From a virus (lineage: Duplodnaviria > Heunggongvirae > Uroviricota > Caudoviricetes), in IMG/VR virus record IMGVR_UViG_2541047850_000009: a stretch of 16,538 nt of DNA. One strand, written 5' to 3'. Positions within the stretch are counted from its first letter, which is position 1; each line of letters starts with the position of its first letter. Below the pieces are notes generated by a model, which had not been told where the DNA came from, did not search any database, and worked only from the letters and a program-made list of their open reading frames with translations. Shown here one piece after another: positions 2,907-14,938 of this stretch. The translations under genes and the position numbers were made by a program.

Positions 2907-3363
2907 AAACCGCTTGCAAAAAATTATCACGGGGCTGTATGCTTCCCCCGTCGCCCACATGGCGACCGGGTTTGACAGCCTGAATACATCTGGCGGACAG
3001 CCGCCCACATCCGATAAGCGGTTTTTTTGTGTCCGTAAACCTACCCATACCCGCATTATGGCGGGGCGTAACGGGGGAGCCTTTGTGCTCGCTGGTTTCC
3101 AGATGACCAGTCTGTCAACCCTGTTACGTCTCGCCACCATGTTTGACAGCGTAGTAGCGAGACTCCTTAAAATTCATCTGGGAGCCTTTCACATGGCTGT
3201 ATCCGCACGCCCTTACTTTGTCTGGCGCTTTATGCAGTGCCTGACAGACAGCATTGCAATATTCACCGTTACCGCTGCCACTGAGCGCGAAGCACGCGCA
3301 CAGCTGCCGCACGCACATCTTATTTTTGTCGCCCGTATTCGTCAGGGGGTGTGCCATGCCTGA
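2899..3363 (+). CDS. Hypothetical protein (154 aa) whose C-terminal 50 aa is paralogous to the 2709..2906 product
   Basis: Translationally coupled start. C-terminus RPYFVWRF...TEREAR...ARIRQGVCHA. The same 19-nt DNA string cgcccgtattcgtcagggg occurs at 2873..2891 and 3330..3348. Confidence 0.6.
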   Translation: MRKNRLQKIITGLYASPVAHMATGFDSLNTSGGQPPTSDKRFFCVRKPTHTRIMAGRNGGAFVLAGFQMTSLSTLLRLATMFDSVVARLLKIHLGAFHMAVSARPYFVWRFMQCLTDSIAIFTVTAATEREARAQLPHAHLIFVARIRQGVCHA

Positions 3364-3682: not shown

Positions 3683-3982
3683 ATGAGAACATATTTATCT
3701 GGCTTGACTGCCAGCGGTTATGCACACCCCCAAATTATCCCCGGCGCTATTTATCTGGATAAGAACGGTAACAGAGTAACGGTAAAAGAACTGATGTTTG
3801 ACCGAGTGTATTTTATCCGTGATGGCTATTCATTTCTTAGTTCGCTGAACGTGGAGATCTTTATTAGCAGATTCAGGCGGGAAATCCCGCTTTCCAGAAA
3901 TAACCATGTGTCATGTATGGATGTTGATAAAAAACTACAGGAACTAAAAAACATGATTGCCGCGTGGAGAGAGCAGAAATGA
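3683..3982 (+). CDS. Hypothetical protein (99 aa), AT-rich gene
   Basis: ATG 6 nt after the previous stop. Its stop overlaps the primase start (ATGA). No family recognised. Confidence 0.5.
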   Translation: MRTYLSGLTASGYAHPQIIPGAIYLDKNGNRVTVKELMFDRVYFIRDGYSFLSSLNVEIFISRFRREIPLSRNNHVSCMDVDKKLQELKNMIAAWREQK

Positions 3983-6102
3983 AAAAAGCGCCAAATTTAA
4001 AACACCAGCCACGTGACAAAATGACGGAAGTCATCATTTTTGCGGGTAGTGATGCGTGGGCACATGCGAAGCAGTGGCAGGAACAGGACGGGCGACTGGC
4101 TGGCGACAGCGTGCCTCCTGTCTGGCTTGGAGAGCAACAACTTGCCGAACTGGATAAGCTGCAAATTGTGCCGGAAGGCCGAAAATCAGTACGCATATTC
4201 AGGGCCGGACATCTTGAGCCAGTAATGATCAAGGCGATTGGTCAGAAGCTGGCGGCGGCAGGCGTACAGGATGCAAATTTTTACCCTGATGGAATGCACG
4301 GTCAGGAGGTGGAGAACTGGCGCGAATATCTGGCCCGTGAGCGGCAGAATCTTTCTGATGGTCTGGTTATTGAGTTTCCGGTAAAGAAAAAAGATACCGG
4401 AAGCCATAGCGATGACGAATTAAAGCCACGCGTTGAAAGTCGCGCCGATGGTGTTTTCTGGGTAACGCCCAAAGTGGATAAGCAGTCAGGCGAAATTATC
4501 CGGCCTGAGACGTGGTTATGTTCTCCGCTTGAACTACTGGGAACGGGGACGATCGGTAAAGAGCATTACCGCGTGATGCGCTGGAAAAAAACCGCAAACC
4601 ATGAAGTCATCACAATGGCGATCCCGTGTGGTGGTATCGGCGACCGTGACGGCTGGCGGTTACTTAAAGATCACGGGCTGAACGTGACAACCAACGGCAA
4701 ATACAGGGCAATCCTGGCGGACTGGATGCAGTTAAGCGGAAGCCATGAGGAATGGCAGTTAAGCACAACAACGGGCTGGCATTTTGGCGCGTACATCATG
4801 CCGGACGGTTCGATCATTGGTGAATCTGAAAAACCGATCCTGTTTACCGGAAAAAGCGCCGCGATTAACGGTTATTCCGTGGCGGGCACGGCGGATGGCT
4901 GGCGCGACAGCGTGGCGCGGCTGGCTGGCGGTAATGCCTCAATGATGCTGGGTGTGGCAACGTCACTGGCAGCGCCTTTAATTGGCCTTGTGGGTGCTGA
5001 CGGCTTCGGGGTGCATCTTTTCGAACAGTCATCGGCAGGTAAGACCACCACGCAGAACATCGCATCAAGTTTATGGGGAGAGCCGGACGCGCAGCGGCTG
5101 ACCTGGTACGGCACGGCGTTAGGTATTGCCAATGAGGCCGAGGCCCATAATGACGGGCTTTTACCACTGGATGAGATAGGCCAGGCCGGAAATGCGCGGG
5201 AAGTGTCAACGTCTGCTTATACGCTGTTTAACGGTTCAGGGAAATTGCAGGGGGCGAAGGATGGCGGCAACAGGGAGATCAAACACTGGCGAACGGTGGC
5301 AATCAGCACCGGAGAAATGGACGTTGAGACATTCCTCAAAAGTGAGGGGATAAAAGTTAAGGCGGGGCAGCTTGTCCGACTGCTTAACGTTCCGATGGAA
5401 AAAGCCACGAAATTTCACGAATACAGCAACGGTAAGGAACATGCTGACGCGTTAAAGGATGCCTGGACAGCAAATCACGGGGCGGCGGGTCGTGAGTGGG
5501 TTAAATGGCTGGCAGGCCACCAGCAGGAGGCAAAGGATACGGTAAGGGAATGCCGCGAACGGTGGCGCAACCTGATACCGGAGAGCTACGGCGAGCAGGT
5601 CCACCGCGTGGGTGAACGTTTCGCCATACTGGAGGCCGCGCTTGTGCTTTCCGGTCATGTAACTGGCTGGGTCGTGCAGGAATGCCGCGACGCGATACAG
5701 CATAACTTTAATGCCTGGGTGAAGGAGTTCGGCACGGGTAACAGGGAATTTAAACAGATGGTTGAACAGGCTGAGGCGTTTTTGTCGTCGTTTGGGTTTA
5801 GCCGCTACCTTCCGTACCCCAATACAGATGAGCGTGATTTACCGATTAAAGAGCTTGCCGGATACAGAAAAGGGAGCATTCGCAACGAAGATGACGAGAT
5901 GCGCTATTACACGTTCCCGCACGTGTTTGAGAGTGAGATAGCGAAGGGATTTAATCCGGCGCATTTTGCGCGTGCCCTGGATGCTGCCGGAATGCTGGAG
6001 AAGGGAAGCGATCGCCGATACAAAAAAAAGGCGCTGGGCAAGATTGGGGGTAAGCAGCATGTTTTTTACGTGCTGATGTTCCAGCCTGATGATGAAGATT
6101 AA
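3979..6102 (+). CDS. Primase-helicase type replication protein (DUF927 / D5-like NTPase, P4 alpha-like)
   Basis: 707-aa ORF. P-loop-like FEQSSAGKTT and Walker-B-like LLPLDEIG in the central region. Sits immediately upstream of an iteron array. Domain family assigned from memory of typical satellite annotations. Confidence 0.75.
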   Translation: MKKAPNLKHQPRDKMTEVIIFAGSDAWAHAKQWQEQDGRLAGDSVPPVWLGEQQLAELDKLQIVPEGRKSVRIFRAGHLEPVMIKAIGQKLAAAGVQDANFYPDGMHGQEVENWREYLARERQNLSDGLVIEFPVKKKDTGSHSDDELKPRVESRADGVFWVTPKVDKQSGEIIRPETWLCSPLELLGTGTIGKEHYRVMRWKKTANHEVITMAIPCGGIGDRDGWRLLKDHGLNVTTNGKYRAILADWMQLSGSHEEWQLSTTTGWHFGAYIMPDGSIIGESEKPILFTGKSAAINGYSVAGTADGWRDSVARLAGGNASMMLGVATSLAAPLIGLVGADGFGVHLFEQSSAGKTTTQNIASSLWGEPDAQRLTWYGTALGIANEAEAHNDGLLPLDEIGQAGNAREVSTSAYTLFNGSGKLQGAKDGGNREIKHWRTVAISTGEMDVETFLKSEGIKVKAGQLVRLLNVPMEKATKFHEYSNGKEHADALKDAWTANHGAAGREWVKWLAGHQQEAKDTVRECRERWRNLIPESYGEQVHRVGERFAILEAALVLSGHVTGWVVQECRDAIQHNFNAWVKEFGTGNREFKQMVEQAEAFLSSFGFSRYLPYPNTDERDLPIKELAGYRKGSIRNEDDEMRYYTFPHVFESEIAKGFNPAHFARALDAAGMLEKGSDRRYKKKALGKIGGKQHVFYVLMFQPDDED

Positions 6103-6124
6103 TCCCCTGTGTGAGGAAAAAAAT

Positions 6125-6463
6125 TGCGGGTTATGCGGGTTATCCTGTGTATAAGTGTATTAAGTGCATGAATATAAAGGAAACCAATAACCCGCACGTA
6201 ACCCGCAAAAGGGCATTTATAACCCGCAAAAGCACGATTATAACCCGCTGGCGAATAACTGAAGTAACACCGGACAGTCATGCGTAACCCGCAGAAAAAA
6301 ACCGTTTGCGGGTTATTTTGAGCGTTTTGCGGGTTACGTGGTGAGCAAATAATAAACAGGGCGTTTTGCAAAATACTGATATAAAAGGATAAAAAATGGT
6401 TAGCACGCTAAGATAACCCAATAACCCGCATAACCCGCACATGTTTCTATATATATATAAATT
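6125..6463. repeat. Replication origin candidate: iteron array (9-bp TAACCCGCA in both orientations) plus AT-rich tract
   Basis: TGCGGGTTA at 6125, 6134, 6307, 6328. TAACCCGCA at 6188, 6199, 6220, 6285, 6422, 6431, with degenerate copies at 6241 and 6414. AT-rich tttctatatatatataaatt at 6443..6463. Confidence 0.7.
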
Positions 6464-6473
6464 GAGGTGGCAA

Positions 6474-6725
6474 ATGACCAGAACACGCAGAGACAGAACA
6501 GAGCCAAAATATAAAGCGTTAGACATGACTGAGCACACCTTAAAGGTGGCAATCAGAACGATAGACCGCCACACGCGGGAAGGATACGCGAAGGAACATC
6601 CCGACCTGATAAGCGCATTCATGACCACGACGGCGGCAAACTTTGCCACGCTGACAGAGCGGGAGATTGCCGAAGCGGAACAGGTAACAACCATCAACGT
6701 TAAAACCGGAGAGCAGACAGCATGA
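6474..6725 (+). CDS. Hypothetical basic small protein (83 aa)
   Basis: ATG after GAGGTG. Stop overlaps the ssb start (ATGA). Lies between the origin and ssb. No family recognised. Confidence 0.5.
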   Translation: MTRTRRDRTEPKYKALDMTEHTLKVAIRTIDRHTREGYAKEHPDLISAFMTTTAANFATLTEREIAEAEQVTTINVKTGEQTA

Positions 6726-7132
6726 CAGCACAGATAGCGGCTTACGGGCGGCTGGTGGACGACCCGCAGGTAAAACAGACCAGCAAGGGCACACCGATGA
6801 CGCTGGCGCGTATGGCGGTATCTTTGCCATGCAGCCAGGCACAGGACGGACAGGCGACGTTATGGTTATCGGTCATCGCATTTGGCAAACAGGCCGACCA
6901 ACTGGCAGGACATGAGAAAGGCAACGTAATCAGCGTATCCGGCGTGATGCAGATAAGCCAGTGGACCGGACAGAACGGGGAGACGCGTCAGGGTTATCAG
7001 GTCATTGCAGACAGCGTAATCAGTGCCCGTGCGGCACGTCCTGGCGGGAACAGACGCAAAACCACAGGCACACAGGGTAATCAGCCACCAGCGGGAGACG
7101 ATGACCCCTACGGTGATGATATTCCGTTCTGA
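6722..7132 (+). CDS. ssb: Single-stranded DNA-binding protein
   Basis: 136-aa ORF. OB-fold-like N-terminal region, glycine/glutamine-rich linker, and the diagnostic acidic tail DDDPYGDDIPF. Confidence 0.85.
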   Translation: MTAQIAAYGRLVDDPQVKQTSKGTPMTLARMAVSLPCSQAQDGQATLWLSVIAFGKQADQLAGHEKGNVISVSGVMQISQWTGQNGETRQGYQVIADSVISARAARPGGNRRKTTGTQGNQPPAGDDDPYGDDIPF

Positions 7133-7144
7133 GGGGTGGGGACG

Positions 7145-7417
7145 ATGGTACATGACCGCATAGCGGAAGAACTGGAGGCGAAAGGCTTTTACCGGAGAGC
7201 GTCGGCGCGATGGGGTGAAGTCATGCAACTGGTGGAGACAGACAAGGAACGGCATCACATCACGATGCGACGGCTGGAATGTTCCAGGAAGGCACAGAGG
7301 CCACCGGAGCCGCCGGATAATTACGGAGACCTGAAAAAGGCGGTCGATCGCACTTATGCCGAAATGGGTATGGATGGTGCTGGTGATGAAATATGGCGAA
7401 ATTACCAGGACAGATAA
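7145..7417 (+). CDS. PerC-family-like transcriptional regulator
   Basis: 90-aa ORF from the ATG at 7145 (the track start at 7136 is GTG). N-terminal motif DRIAEELEAKGFYRRASARWGEV resembles the PerC/Pch signature (AE.LE..G.WRRAA.RW) as I recall it. Confidence 0.5.
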   Translation: MVHDRIAEELEAKGFYRRASARWGEVMQLVETDKERHHITMRRLECSRKAQRPPEPPDNYGDLKKAVDRTYAEMGMDGAGDEIWRNYQDR

Positions 7418-14341: not shown

Positions 14342-14595
14342 CTGGTTGATATTCCCGACGGCCCAAAAATGGGTTGGCTACACCCCTCACAACTACGACA
14401 TTTTCGCAGTTTAATTAATGGTCAGCTTAATCGCTAACCCGCTGATATTTTCGGAAACCTCAATTTGAGGAAGTCGGCGCGGTAACTCGCTGAACTTTAA
14501 GCAAAGCGCAAAATTGCGCTTGCTGAATAATCATTATGATTACGCAGATGATTAAGGAATGACCGAAGGCGGAAATTCGCCTGTGGTTAATGGGG

Positions 14596-14615
14596 GAGTT
14601 GCAGATCTGCAACTC
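14596..14615. repeat. Perfect 20-bp palindrome GAGTTGCAGATCTGCAACTC
   Basis: Read directly. One of several dyads in the non-coding right end, alongside TGGGGATCCCCA at 14847..14858, AAGCGCAA-AA-TTGCGCTT at 14499..14516 and CCGGAA-AAAAA-TTCCGG at 14828..14844. Confidence 0.4.
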
Positions 14616-14938
14616 GACCATGAAACTACGGAAACTACCCGTAGTTTGGGTAGTAAGAGTAACACCCAGATTTTGGGGCTTACTCGTGATACCCAAATTT
14701 GGGGTATCAGTGGCAACCATAACGACTTTCGTTACGGTTGATGCTTTTACCCCATTGGGGGAAAGGTATTACGATAATCATAACACCTACCGAACAGGTA
14801 AAGCCCACCAGCCTGATTAACGTTTAACCGGAAAAAAATTCCGGTAGGTGGGGATCCCCATATCGACATTAACGCCCCTCATGAATTGGTGCGCTTCCCC
14901 CTGGAAAGATGATCCGCCTGTATATTTCTTGTGTCTAT

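What the first reader, a model, noticed from the sequence alone, without database searches (positions are those of the whole stretch)
6125..6463. Iteron-type replication origin immediately downstream of the primase-helicase gene
About eleven copies of the 9-mer TAACCCGCA (both orientations, irregular spacing) span 6125..6439 and end in an AT-rich tract (6443..6463). This is the classic layout of satellite and PICI origins, where the Pri-Rep protein binds iterons beside its own gene. A lone copy of the same 8-mer (TAACCCGC at 14446..14453) in the right-end non-coding region is noted but could be chance.
Basis: partly seen in the sequence, partly recalled or inferred. Interest (0 to 1): 0.55.

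Follow-up and report, generated by a model that had tools for sequence, protein, structure and literature searches.

The report
Satellite replication origin with twelve repeats
The repeats are real and are very probably the replication origin of an E. coli phage satellite, where the satellite's own primase-helicase docks; this is an already described kind of origin, though here it is built from two six-site modules that lie kilobases apart in sister elements.

Summary
Observation confirmed. There are 10 exact copies and 1 one-mismatch copy of TAACCCGCA in 6125-6439. A degenerate 12th copy lies at 6414-6421, and a pure A/T run at 6448-6463. Chance does not explain this (0 of 200 shuffles).

The window is an E. 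coli capsid-forming PICI-type satellite, about 97% identical at this spot to O157:H7 Sakai 'prophage Sp7'. The array starts 23 nt after the stop of a DUF927 primase-helicase.

The same layout follows homologous genes in about ten enterobacterial genera, but the repeat word changes. The word tracks the last ~35-70 residues of the protein, not its helicase core. An E. albertii protein is 94% identical in the core and 22% in the tail, and its word is different.

It matches the published PICI/SaPI origin design, so this is a new member of a known kind.

New detail: the array is two six-site units. In relatives they are split by 2-11 kb, as in P4 crr/ori, and the distant unit still carries the cognate word.

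The lone copy is at 14435, not 14446, and is at chance level.

The parts
3979..6102 (+). Pri-Rep gene (707 aa). It has an N-terminal domain shared with other PICI primases, a DUF927 AAA+ helicase core, and a C-terminal winged-helix domain.
   Evidence: Pfam DUF927 at 1.6e-48 and sub-threshold HTH_56 at residues 637-706. PHROG 'DNA primase' at 1.6e-190. PDB 8tch, a SaPI Rep, at E 1e-12 over residues 229-602. NCBIfam Cch1 at 3e-10.
5650..6099 (+). Coding region for the C-terminal 150 aa, the predicted origin-binding winged-helix domain. The specificity-determining tail is residues 671-702 (nt 5989-6084).
6125..6142 (-). Left unit: two abutting sites (9-bp step), TGCGGGTTA TGCGGGTTA on the + strand.
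   Evidence: Conserved in all classes at the same position.
6143..6187 (.). Left AT-rich spacer (69% AT). It contains a DnaA-box consensus match, TTATACACA, at 6146-6154 on the minus strand.
   Evidence: The spacer is partly conserved across classes. The DnaA-box count in the window is not above chance.
6188..6249 (+). Left unit: four phased sites at 6188, 6199, 6220 and 6241 (steps 11, 21, 21). The last is the variant TAACCCGCT.
6285..6293 (+). Right unit: a solitary forward site, 22 nt before the first reverse site.
   Evidence: The same position is occupied in L008, L009, L013, L016, L024 and L026.
6307..6336 (-). Right unit: two phased reverse sites at 6307 and 6328 (21-bp step).
6337..6413 (.). 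Right AT-rich spacer (65% AT; the lowest GC of the region is 0.32 at 6350-6409). Its 3' half is well conserved among E. coli relatives.
6414..6439 (+). Right unit: abutting sites. These are the degenerate TAACCCAA at 6414-6421 followed by exact copies at 6422 and 6431.
6444..6463 (.). T-rich stretch plus a (TA)n tract (TTTC TATATATATATAAATT). It always follows the abutting sites of the right unit and is the candidate unwinding element.
   Evidence: Consensus GTTTTGTnTATATATA is kept across repeat-word classes and also where the unit lies at an island's far end. P4 ori and crr likewise have an A/T run after an abutting doublet.
6474..7132 (+). Downstream genes: an 83-aa protein of unknown function (6474-6725) and the island's single-strand DNA-binding protein (6722-7132).
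14435..14443 (+). Lone TAACCCGCT. It is not part of the origin and is at chance level.
   Evidence: It is not at the position where split islands carry their distal unit.

Best explanation
The 6125-6463 stretch is the replication origin of this capsid-forming PICI-type satellite.

It holds twelve 9-bp sites (TAACCCGCA) arranged as two six-site units. Each unit has 21-bp-phased sites, an AT-rich spacer, and two or three abutting sites in the opposite orientation. The right unit ends in a (TA)n tract.

Shown here:
- The sites are conserved far better than the DNA between them.
- The layout is shared by homologous islands in many genera.
- The site sequence changes together with the C-terminal winged-helix tail of the adjacent DUF927 primase-helicase.
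- That domain has the fold of the C-terminal domain (CTD) of SaPIbov1 Rep.

Inferred from work on SaPI Rep proteins:
- The hexameric Pri-Rep binds the sites through its six winged-helix domains without ATP.
- It melts the AT-rich DNA and loads itself as a helicase, probably one hexamer per six-site unit, giving two forks.
- Its N-terminal domain primes, the island's SSB (6722-7132) coats the single strands, and the host polymerase extends.
For: Clustering far above chance.

Position 23 nt after the stop of a DUF927 helicase gene homologous to SaPI Rep and Cch.

The same layout occurs after homologues in Escherichia, Winslowiella, Cedecea, Serratia, Rahnella, Pantoea, Citrobacter, Yersinia, Pectobacterium, Tenebrionibacter and Apirhabdus, with seven different words.

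The word tracks the protein tail:
- L007 is 94% identical to the window protein in the helicase core but 22% in the tail, and its word is TTGTCCCA.
- L008 and L023 are 73-74% identical in the core and 72-78% in the tail, and their word is TAACCCAC, one base different.
- Proteins with different N-terminal architectures (about 700 aa versus about 900 aa with TOPRIM) share both tail and word.

Distant units carry the cognate word, so adjacency alone does not explain the correlation. This holds for L033 (7.5 kb), L029, L030 and L027 (8-11 kb), L032 (2.2 kb) and L024 (2.1 kb).

Sites are 96-98% conserved against 65-79% for non-site columns.

Published design: PICI origins lie 3' of pri-rep, with two iteron sets flanking an AT-rich region, shown to function in EcCICFT073 (PMC6092414). 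SaPI Rep's C-terminal winged helix binds 6-12 iterons downstream of rep, and deleting the CTD abolishes origin binding (PMC9371898).
Against: No binding or replication experiment exists for this element in the literature I could search.

Right units with exact TAACCCGC words also occur in islands whose primase is P4 alpha-like and has its own, different iterons (L031, L028). They also occur in an island with a truncated primase (L034). So a unit can persist without a cognate protein in cis.

Rows in the conservation and covariation tests are phylogenetically related, so the p-values overstate independence.

No Pfam primase domain was detected in this 707-aa protein at E <= 0.01.

The 'one hexamer per six-site unit' step is numerology plus analogy and was not tested.

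A regulatory role for the right unit on downstream genes is not excluded.
Confidence: 0.85

Rival explanations
1. The array, or its right unit, is mainly a transcriptional control region. Protein bound to the repeats would switch a promoter in the (TA)n tract that drives the downstream genes (hyp-ssb-perC and the capsid genes).
For: The right unit ends 10 nt before the start codon at 6474. In L033 and L034 the right unit sits directly upstream of a perC-family gene, followed by TATCTATATAAT. The TATATATA element is conserved irrespective of repeat word.
Against: No sigma-70-type promoter was found in 5900-6700. The ribosome-binding site begins 2 nt after the tract, which leaves almost no leader. 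In L027, L029, L030, L031 and L032 the same unit with the same tract lies at the island's right end with no island gene downstream. The left unit has no gene to control. P4 ori and crr show the same doublet-plus-A/T-run arrangement. A secondary regulatory role is not excluded.
Confidence: 0.08
2. The repeats are a packaging signal (cos or pac accessory sites) bound by the island's small terminase.
For: The island encodes its own HNH, TerS and TerL. In several relatives the right unit lies in the non-coding right end, where packaging sites of satellites are often placed.
Against: The word co-varies with the primase tail. Islands without any capsid or terminase genes (L027, L032) carry both units. 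The sequence downstream of the distal unit is the same in L031 and L032 while the words differ. No similarity to the lambda cos end was found in these regions.
Confidence: 0.03
3. The two units have different jobs, as in P4. One is the true start site and the other is a cis-acting enhancer, copy-control or handcuffing site bound by the same protein, rather than two equivalent helicase-loading pads.
For: In relatives the units are separable by 2-11 kb. In the P4 record, crr lies immediately 3' of the alpha gene and ori 4.5 kb away, both with the same octamer. The units differ in which side is phased and which is abutting, and only the right unit has the (TA)n tract.
Against: Nothing here discriminates. 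This is a refinement of the best explanation, not an alternative to origin function. The six sites per unit and the mirror-image arrangement of the two units (inverted repeats I1 and I2) fit two equivalent pads equally well.
Confidence: 0.3

Closest known systems
Replication origins of Gram-negative PICIs (EcCICFT073 and others; Fillol-Salom et al. 2018, PMC6092414)
   Same: Both lie immediately 3' of the pri-rep gene. Both have iterons in two opposed sets flanking AT-rich DNA, in an island that is transcribed rightward with int, alpA and perC-type genes.
   Different: The tested EcCICFT073-type island has a P4 alpha-like primase with the word TGTCTACC (L031). Here the initiator is a DUF927 helicase and the word is TAACCCGCA. 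The present element is a capsid-forming PICI. I found no description of its origin, of the two six-site units, or of the split layout in the papers searched.
SaPI origins and Rep / PriRep self-loading helicases (Qiao et al. 2022, PMC9371898; PDB 8tch)
   Different: SaPI iterons are penta- or hexanucleotides; here the word is 9 bp. There are two AT-rich spacers instead of one, the host is Gram-negative, and a different N-terminal domain is fused.
Satellite phage P4 ori / crr with the alpha primase-helicase (GenBank NC_001609)
   Same: Both are satellites. A short word in both orientations is clustered immediately 3' of the primase-helicase gene (crr), with a second cluster kilobases away (ori). 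An abutting doublet is followed by an A/T run. The split islands L027, L029, L030, L032, L033 and L024 reproduce this bipartite plan.
   Different: The window protein has no detectable similarity to alpha. The word differs (TGTTCACC in P4). In the window the two clusters are fused into one 340-bp region. The crr is two direct 120-bp repeats, whereas here the units are arranged as mirror images.
Iteron plasmids (pSC101, RK2, R6K, P1, F)
   Same: Repeated initiator sites at about 21-22-bp phasing next to an AT-rich unwinding region (general knowledge; review PMC4980987 listed but not read).
   Different: Those iterons are 17-22 bp direct repeats bound by a WH1-WH2 Rep, which recruits host DnaB. 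Here the sites are 9 bp, occur in both orientations, and the initiator is itself the helicase.

Membership tests
PICI/SaPI-type Rep-iteron origin | Located immediately downstream of the pri-rep (initiator-helicase) gene | tested here: met
   The first site begins 23 nt after the stop codon at 6100-6102.
PICI/SaPI-type Rep-iteron origin | Two sets of short repeats in opposite orientation flanking an AT-rich region | tested here: met
   This arrangement occurs twice: 6125-6142(-) | 6143-6187 (69% AT) | 6188-6249(+), and 6307-6336(-) | 6337-6413 (65% AT) | 6414-6439(+).
PICI/SaPI-type Rep-iteron origin | Six to twelve iterons | tested here: met
   Twelve sites, counting one degenerate copy. Relatives have 6 per unit and 12 per full array. 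The word is 9 bp rather than the 5-6 nt reported for SaPIs.
PICI/SaPI-type Rep-iteron origin | Cognate initiator is a Rep-type AAA+ helicase with a C-terminal winged-helix domain | tested here: met
PICI/SaPI-type Rep-iteron origin | Iteron sequence specific to the cognate Rep | tested here: met
   Comparative evidence only. There are seven word classes, each with its own C-terminal tail. Distal units are cognate in 6 of 6 islands that have an intact DUF927 gene.
PICI/SaPI-type Rep-iteron origin | Rep binds and melts the origin; rep plus ori drive autonomous replication | not testable with these tools
   Needs EMSA or footprinting and a plasmid maintenance assay.
P4 ori/crr system | Initiator homologous to the P4 alpha protein | tested here: not met
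   BLASTP of the window protein against alpha gave no significant hit. L028 and L031 primases are 41-48% identical to alpha 290-771.
P4 ori/crr system | Type-1 octamer TGTTCACC | tested here: not met
   The word here is TAACCCGCA. TGTTCACC occurs in P4 and next to the L028 primase.
P4 ori/crr system | Two separate cis elements kilobases apart | tested here: not met
   They are contiguous in the window. The feature is met in relatives L024, L027, L029, L030, L032 and L033.
Iteron plasmid origin (RepA/pi/TrfA type) | 17-22-bp direct iterons bound by a WH1-WH2 Rep protein that recruits host DnaB | tested here: not met
   The sites are 9 bp and occur on both strands. The initiator carries its own helicase.
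Terminase recognition site (cos/pac) | Sequence linked to the packaging genes and their specificity | tested here: not met
   The units are present in islands that lack packaging genes (L027, L032). The word follows the primase tail. There is no similarity to lambda cos.

The most novel reading that the evidence does not exclude
The array is not one origin but two autonomous six-site loading modules. They happen to be fused here, and in sister islands they sit kilobases apart.

The distal module also survives as an 'orphan', with intact words, in islands that have an unrelated P4 alpha-type primase or a truncated one. A Pri-Rep from one resident satellite could therefore fire, or interfere with, replication on another satellite. 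That would be a trans-acting replication and incompatibility network among co-resident satellites.
Probability: 0.2. Interest if true: 0.6.

Novelty: new member of a known kind. Interest (0 to 1): 0.38.

Why it matters
It pins down the cis-acting replication element of the EcCIEDL933-type capsid-forming satellites, which occur in hundreds of E. coli genomes including O157:H7.

It also gives a ready specificity code of seven repeat words, each paired with a winged-helix tail. That code can guide tail-swap experiments, compatibility predictions and the design of satellite-based vectors.

The two-module architecture, its split form and the orphan modules suggest testable ideas. These concern how self-loading helicases are placed for bidirectional replication, and whether co-resident satellites cross-talk.

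The basic claim itself (iterons next to pri-rep) is what the field already expects.

Tried and rejected
- AlphaFold on the C-terminal 150 aa with a 22-sequence alignment gave pLDDT 47.8 and was discarded. A 71-sequence alignment fixed this.
- A profile of the C-terminal domain against PDB sequences found nothing meaningful. Only fold comparison did.
- Pfam HTH_56 stays below its cut-off (23.9 against 26.2 bits; 4 of 12 members). I treat it as a hint only.
- The sigma-70 promoter scan of 5900-6700 found none. The one terminator-like hit is weak and on the minus strand.
- IHF consensus gave no enrichment.
- The DnaA-box consensus has one exact match, in the left spacer at 6146-6154, partly kept in relatives. 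The window-wide count is at chance, so no claim is made.
- Rfam found nothing in the array.
- The idea that the sequence next to distal units is a lambda-type cos came from memory. A short-word BLAST against the lambda left end gave only 8-10-nt chance matches, so it was dropped.
- The lone TAACCCGC at 14435 as a P4-crr-like second site was rejected. It is at chance frequency, and it lies about 270 bp from the position homologous to where split islands carry the distal unit.
- A literature search for P4 crr details was unhelpful. I used the annotated P4 GenBank record instead.
- The small ORFs across the array (6111-6287 +, 6099-6371 -, 6278-6697 -) are not annotated in RefSeq relatives. The conservation pattern is site-wise, not codon-wise, so they are treated as non-coding.

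Full report
OBSERVATION

Reading 5900-6800 and searching TAACCCGCA with up to one mismatch gives 14 hits in the window. Eleven of them lie inside 6125-6439.
- Ten are exact: minus strand at 6125, 6134, 6307 and 6328; plus strand at 6188, 6199, 6220, 6285, 6422 and 6431.
- One is a variant, TAACCCGCT at 6241.

Two hundred dinucleotide-preserving shuffles gave a mean of 4.4 hits, and none reached 14. The exact 8-mer is expected about 0.5 times per window and occurs 12 times.

A further degenerate copy, TAACCCAA at 6414-6421, is an exact copy in relatives. The array therefore has twelve sites.

The A/T tract is real. It is a pure A/T run at 6448-6463.

- The spacing is not irregular. The steps are 9, 11, 21, 21, 44, 22, 21 and 9, which is one or two helical turns.
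- The lone distal 8-mer is at 14435-14442, not 14446-14453.
- That lone copy is at chance level. There are three one-mismatch hits outside the array against 4.4 expected.

CONTEXT

The window is an E. coli phage satellite of the capsid-forming PICI type. Its genes are:
- integrase, 1-1230
- DUF4222 protein, 3683-3982
- a 707-aa DUF927 primase-helicase, 3979-6102
- the array
- an 83-aa protein of unknown function, 6474-6725
- SSB, 6722-7132
- a PerC-family regulator, 7136-7417
- HK97-type capsid, protease, portal, connectors, HNH, TerS and TerL

It is 98.6% identical over 3.9 kb to an island inserted in tqsA of strain E110019. The array region is 96.8% identical to 'prophage Sp7' of O157:H7 Sakai. 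No phage record matches. RefSeq annotates no gene across the array.

WHAT THE RELATIVES SHOW

I fetched loci that encode relatives of the primase-helicase from one genome per species and counted 8-mers downstream of each stop codon.

Every locus has the same picture. It runs: two or three abutting reverse sites, a gap of about 45-60 bp, forward sites at steps 11, 21 and 21, one more forward site, two reverse sites 21 bp apart, a second gap, and two or three abutting forward sites.

The word differs between groups:
- TAACCCGCA in E. coli
- TAACCCAC in Winslowiella and Tenebrionibacter
- TGAACCACG in Cedecea
- TGAACCAAC in Pantoea, Citrobacter, Rahnella, Yersinia, Serratia, Pectobacterium and Apirhabdus
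- TTGTCCCA in E. albertii
- TTATCCCA in Serratia oryzae and Pantoea rodasii
- GAACCGRC in Rahnella woolbedingensis

A multiple alignment shows the layout in register across classes. It also shows a word-independent conserved tail, GTTTTGTnTATATATA, after the last abutting sites.

The architecture is conserved, and only the word changes.

THE WORD FOLLOWS THE PROTEIN'S C-TERMINAL TAIL

I aligned the last 560 residues of 20 proteins. Identity within and between word classes was:
- Helicase core (residues 200-560): 0.78 within, 0.71 between.
- Last 32 residues before the acidic end (671-702): 0.85 within, 0.36 between.

The informative cases are these:
- The E. albertii protein (L007) is 94% identical to the window protein in the core but 22% in the tail, and its word is unrelated.
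- L008 and L023 are 73-74% identical in the core and 72-78% in the tail, and their word differs by one base.
- Tails of the TTGTCCCA and TTATCCCA classes resemble each other, as do their words.
- Proteins of about 700 aa and of about 900 aa (with TOPRIM) share the same tail and word when they are in the same class.

IS THIS ONLY PHYSICAL LINKAGE?

The 3' end of the gene abuts the array, so the two could simply be co-inherited. Islands in which the array is split answer this objection.
- In E. coli strains ExPEC XM, CFSAN064036 and JP538, the left six sites follow the gene. The other six lie 8-11 kb away in the non-coding right end, with the same word.
- In strain YJ6, which belongs to the TGAACCAAC class, the second unit is 7.5 kb away and carries TGAACCAAC.
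- In strain CV839-06, of the TTGTCCCA class, it is 2.2 kb away and carries TTGTCCCA/GTGGGACAG.
- In Serratia fonticola it is 2.1 kb away and cognate.

In all six islands that have an intact DUF927 gene, the distant unit matches.

CONSERVATION

Among E. coli units of the TAACCCGCA class, site positions are 96-98% identical to the window. Other positions are 65-79% identical (Fisher p 3e-12 and 7e-24, but the rows are related). Parts of the spacers are also conserved.

SIX SITES PER UNIT

A tolerant count shows six sites in nearly every single unit and twelve in nearly every full array (a few show 4-5 per unit or 10-13 per array).

In E. coli genomes the left unit is found in 252 genomes and the right unit in 300. 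The two are contiguous, as here, in 141 of 5426.

THE PROTEIN

The core (residues 229-602) matches the SaPI 'pathogenicity island protein' 8tch at E 1e-12 and the SCCmec helicase Cch. NCBIfam gives Cch1.

Sequence methods gave only a sub-threshold HTH_56 ('Cch helix-turn-helix') match at the C-terminus.

A first structure model from a shallow alignment was unusable. After collecting distant homologues, the C-terminal 150 residues modelled at pLDDT 88.1. The model has two long helices followed by a helix-turn-helix with a beta wing.

- generic winged-helix domains after these

Foldseek agrees on the top two.

The hypervariable tail corresponds to the wing, which is rich in Arg and Lys (RRYKKKALGKIGGKQ in the window). 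The helix before it also differs between classes.

PUBLISHED FRAMEWORK

Fillol-Salom et al. [quoted passage not shown] They showed pri-rep-ori function for EcCICFT073.

Qiao et al. 2022 (PMC9371898) report the following for SaPI Reps:
- They are hexamers.
- Their C-terminal winged-helix domain recognises the iterons.
- Six to twelve iterons lie right after rep, with an AT-rich centre.
- Deleting the C-terminal domain abolishes origin binding.
- Two hexamers are thought to self-load.

The capsid-forming PICI papers I could read do not describe the origin.

The annotated P4 record places crr, with TGTTCACC octamers in both orientations, immediately 3' of the alpha gene, and ori 4.5 kb away. An A/T run follows the abutting doublets in both.

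MECHANISM

Shown here:
- Twelve conserved, helically phased sites in two units, with AT-rich spacers and a terminal (TA)n tract.
- Site sequence coupled to the winged-helix tail of the adjacent helicase.
- The fold and homology of that protein to SaPI Rep.

Inferred:
- The hexameric Pri-Rep docks through its winged helices and opens the AT-rich DNA.
- It loads itself, probably one hexamer per six-site unit, to give two forks.
- It primes through its N-terminal domain, helped by the island's SSB.

I put the origin reading at 0.85. The step 'one hexamer per unit' is much less certain.

RIVALS

A promoter or operator role for the right unit has some support. It abuts the next gene here and precedes perC in L033 and L034. 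But there is no sigma-70 match, there is almost no leader, and the same unit stands at island ends with nothing downstream.

A packaging site is unlikely. Islands without packaging genes keep both units (L027, L032), the word follows the primase, and there is no similarity to lambda cos.

A P4-like division of labour between the two units remains open. In that model one unit is the start site and the other a cis enhancer or copy-control site. This is a refinement of the origin reading rather than a contradiction of it.

UNEXPLAINED

Right units with intact TAACCCGC words occur in two islands whose primase is P4 alpha-like and has its own adjacent iterons:
- strain F11, in the cspD-clpS island, with the word TGTCTACC
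- strain EC12, with the word TGTTCACC as in P4

Those primases are 41-48% identical to alpha. Their first 140-160 residues are 69-76% identical to the window protein.

A right unit also persists in strain D2, where the primase gene is truncated.

These could be relics of recombination, or sites that let a co-resident island's Pri-Rep act in trans. The data do not decide between the two.

VERDICT

The feature is a new member of a known kind of origin. The added value lies in three things: the two-module anatomy, its split form in relatives, and the pairing of each repeat word with a protein tail.

Noticed in passing
window 2937-3141 (+): Rfam finds a C4 antisense RNA (RF01695, 72.6 bits) at 3054-3141 and its a1/b1 target elements (RF03163) at 2937-2986. 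They lie just upstream of an Icd-like cell-division-inhibitor ORF. This is a P1/P7-type antisense immunity module inside the satellite.
   Followed up: no
L027 16531-16684; L029 27987-28139; L030 29210-29362; L032 18561-18680; L033 23789-23910; L024 5992-6115: In these relatives the second six-site unit is not beside the first. It lies 2-11 kb away, usually in the island's non-coding right end, and still carries the word cognate to the island's DUF927 protein. This is a bipartite layout like P4 crr/ori.
   Followed up: yes
L031 17983-18136 (E. coli F11, cspD-clpS island); L028 15326-15470 (E. coli EC12); L034 15983-16104 (E. coli D2): These are 'orphan' right units with intact words. They occur in islands whose primase is P4 alpha-like with different adjacent iterons (TGTCTACC in L031, TGTTCACC in L028), or whose DUF927 gene is truncated (L034).
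   Followed up: partly
window 3979-~4455 (primase residues 1-159); L028 3757-~4180; L031 11163-~11650: The first 140-160 residues of the window's DUF927 protein are 69-76% identical to the N-terminus of P4 alpha-like PICI primases, while the rest is unrelated. This points to modular shuffling of the N-terminal domain, the helicase and the origin-binding domain. Pfam assigns no domain to this N-terminus.
   Followed up: partly
window ~14596-14715: A palindrome-rich module of about 120 bp (GAGTTGCAGATCTGCAACTC...ACTACGGAAACTACCCGTAGT...GATACCCAAATTTGGGGTATC) lies in the right-end non-coding region. It recurs, sometimes twice, in the right ends of related islands (90% identity to L028 15601-15721; two copies in L029), immediately upstream of their distal origin unit. 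Its function is unknown.
   Followed up: no
window 7136-7417 (+): The PerC-family regulator gene corresponds to pchE of O157:H7 Sakai prophage Sp7. PICI-encoded PerC homologues are reported to act on the LEE pathogenicity island (PMC6092414).
   Followed up: no
window 6146-6154 (-): An exact DnaA-box consensus, TTATACACA, lies in the left AT-rich spacer next to the abutting doublet. It is kept in L003 and L030 and as TTATGCACA in L027. The window-wide count of such matches is at chance.
   Followed up: partly
window 6448-6459; L029 ~28150; L030 ~29375: The (TA)n run after the right unit varies in length between close relatives, from 4 to 7 TA repeats. This is the pattern expected from slippage.
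   Followed up: no
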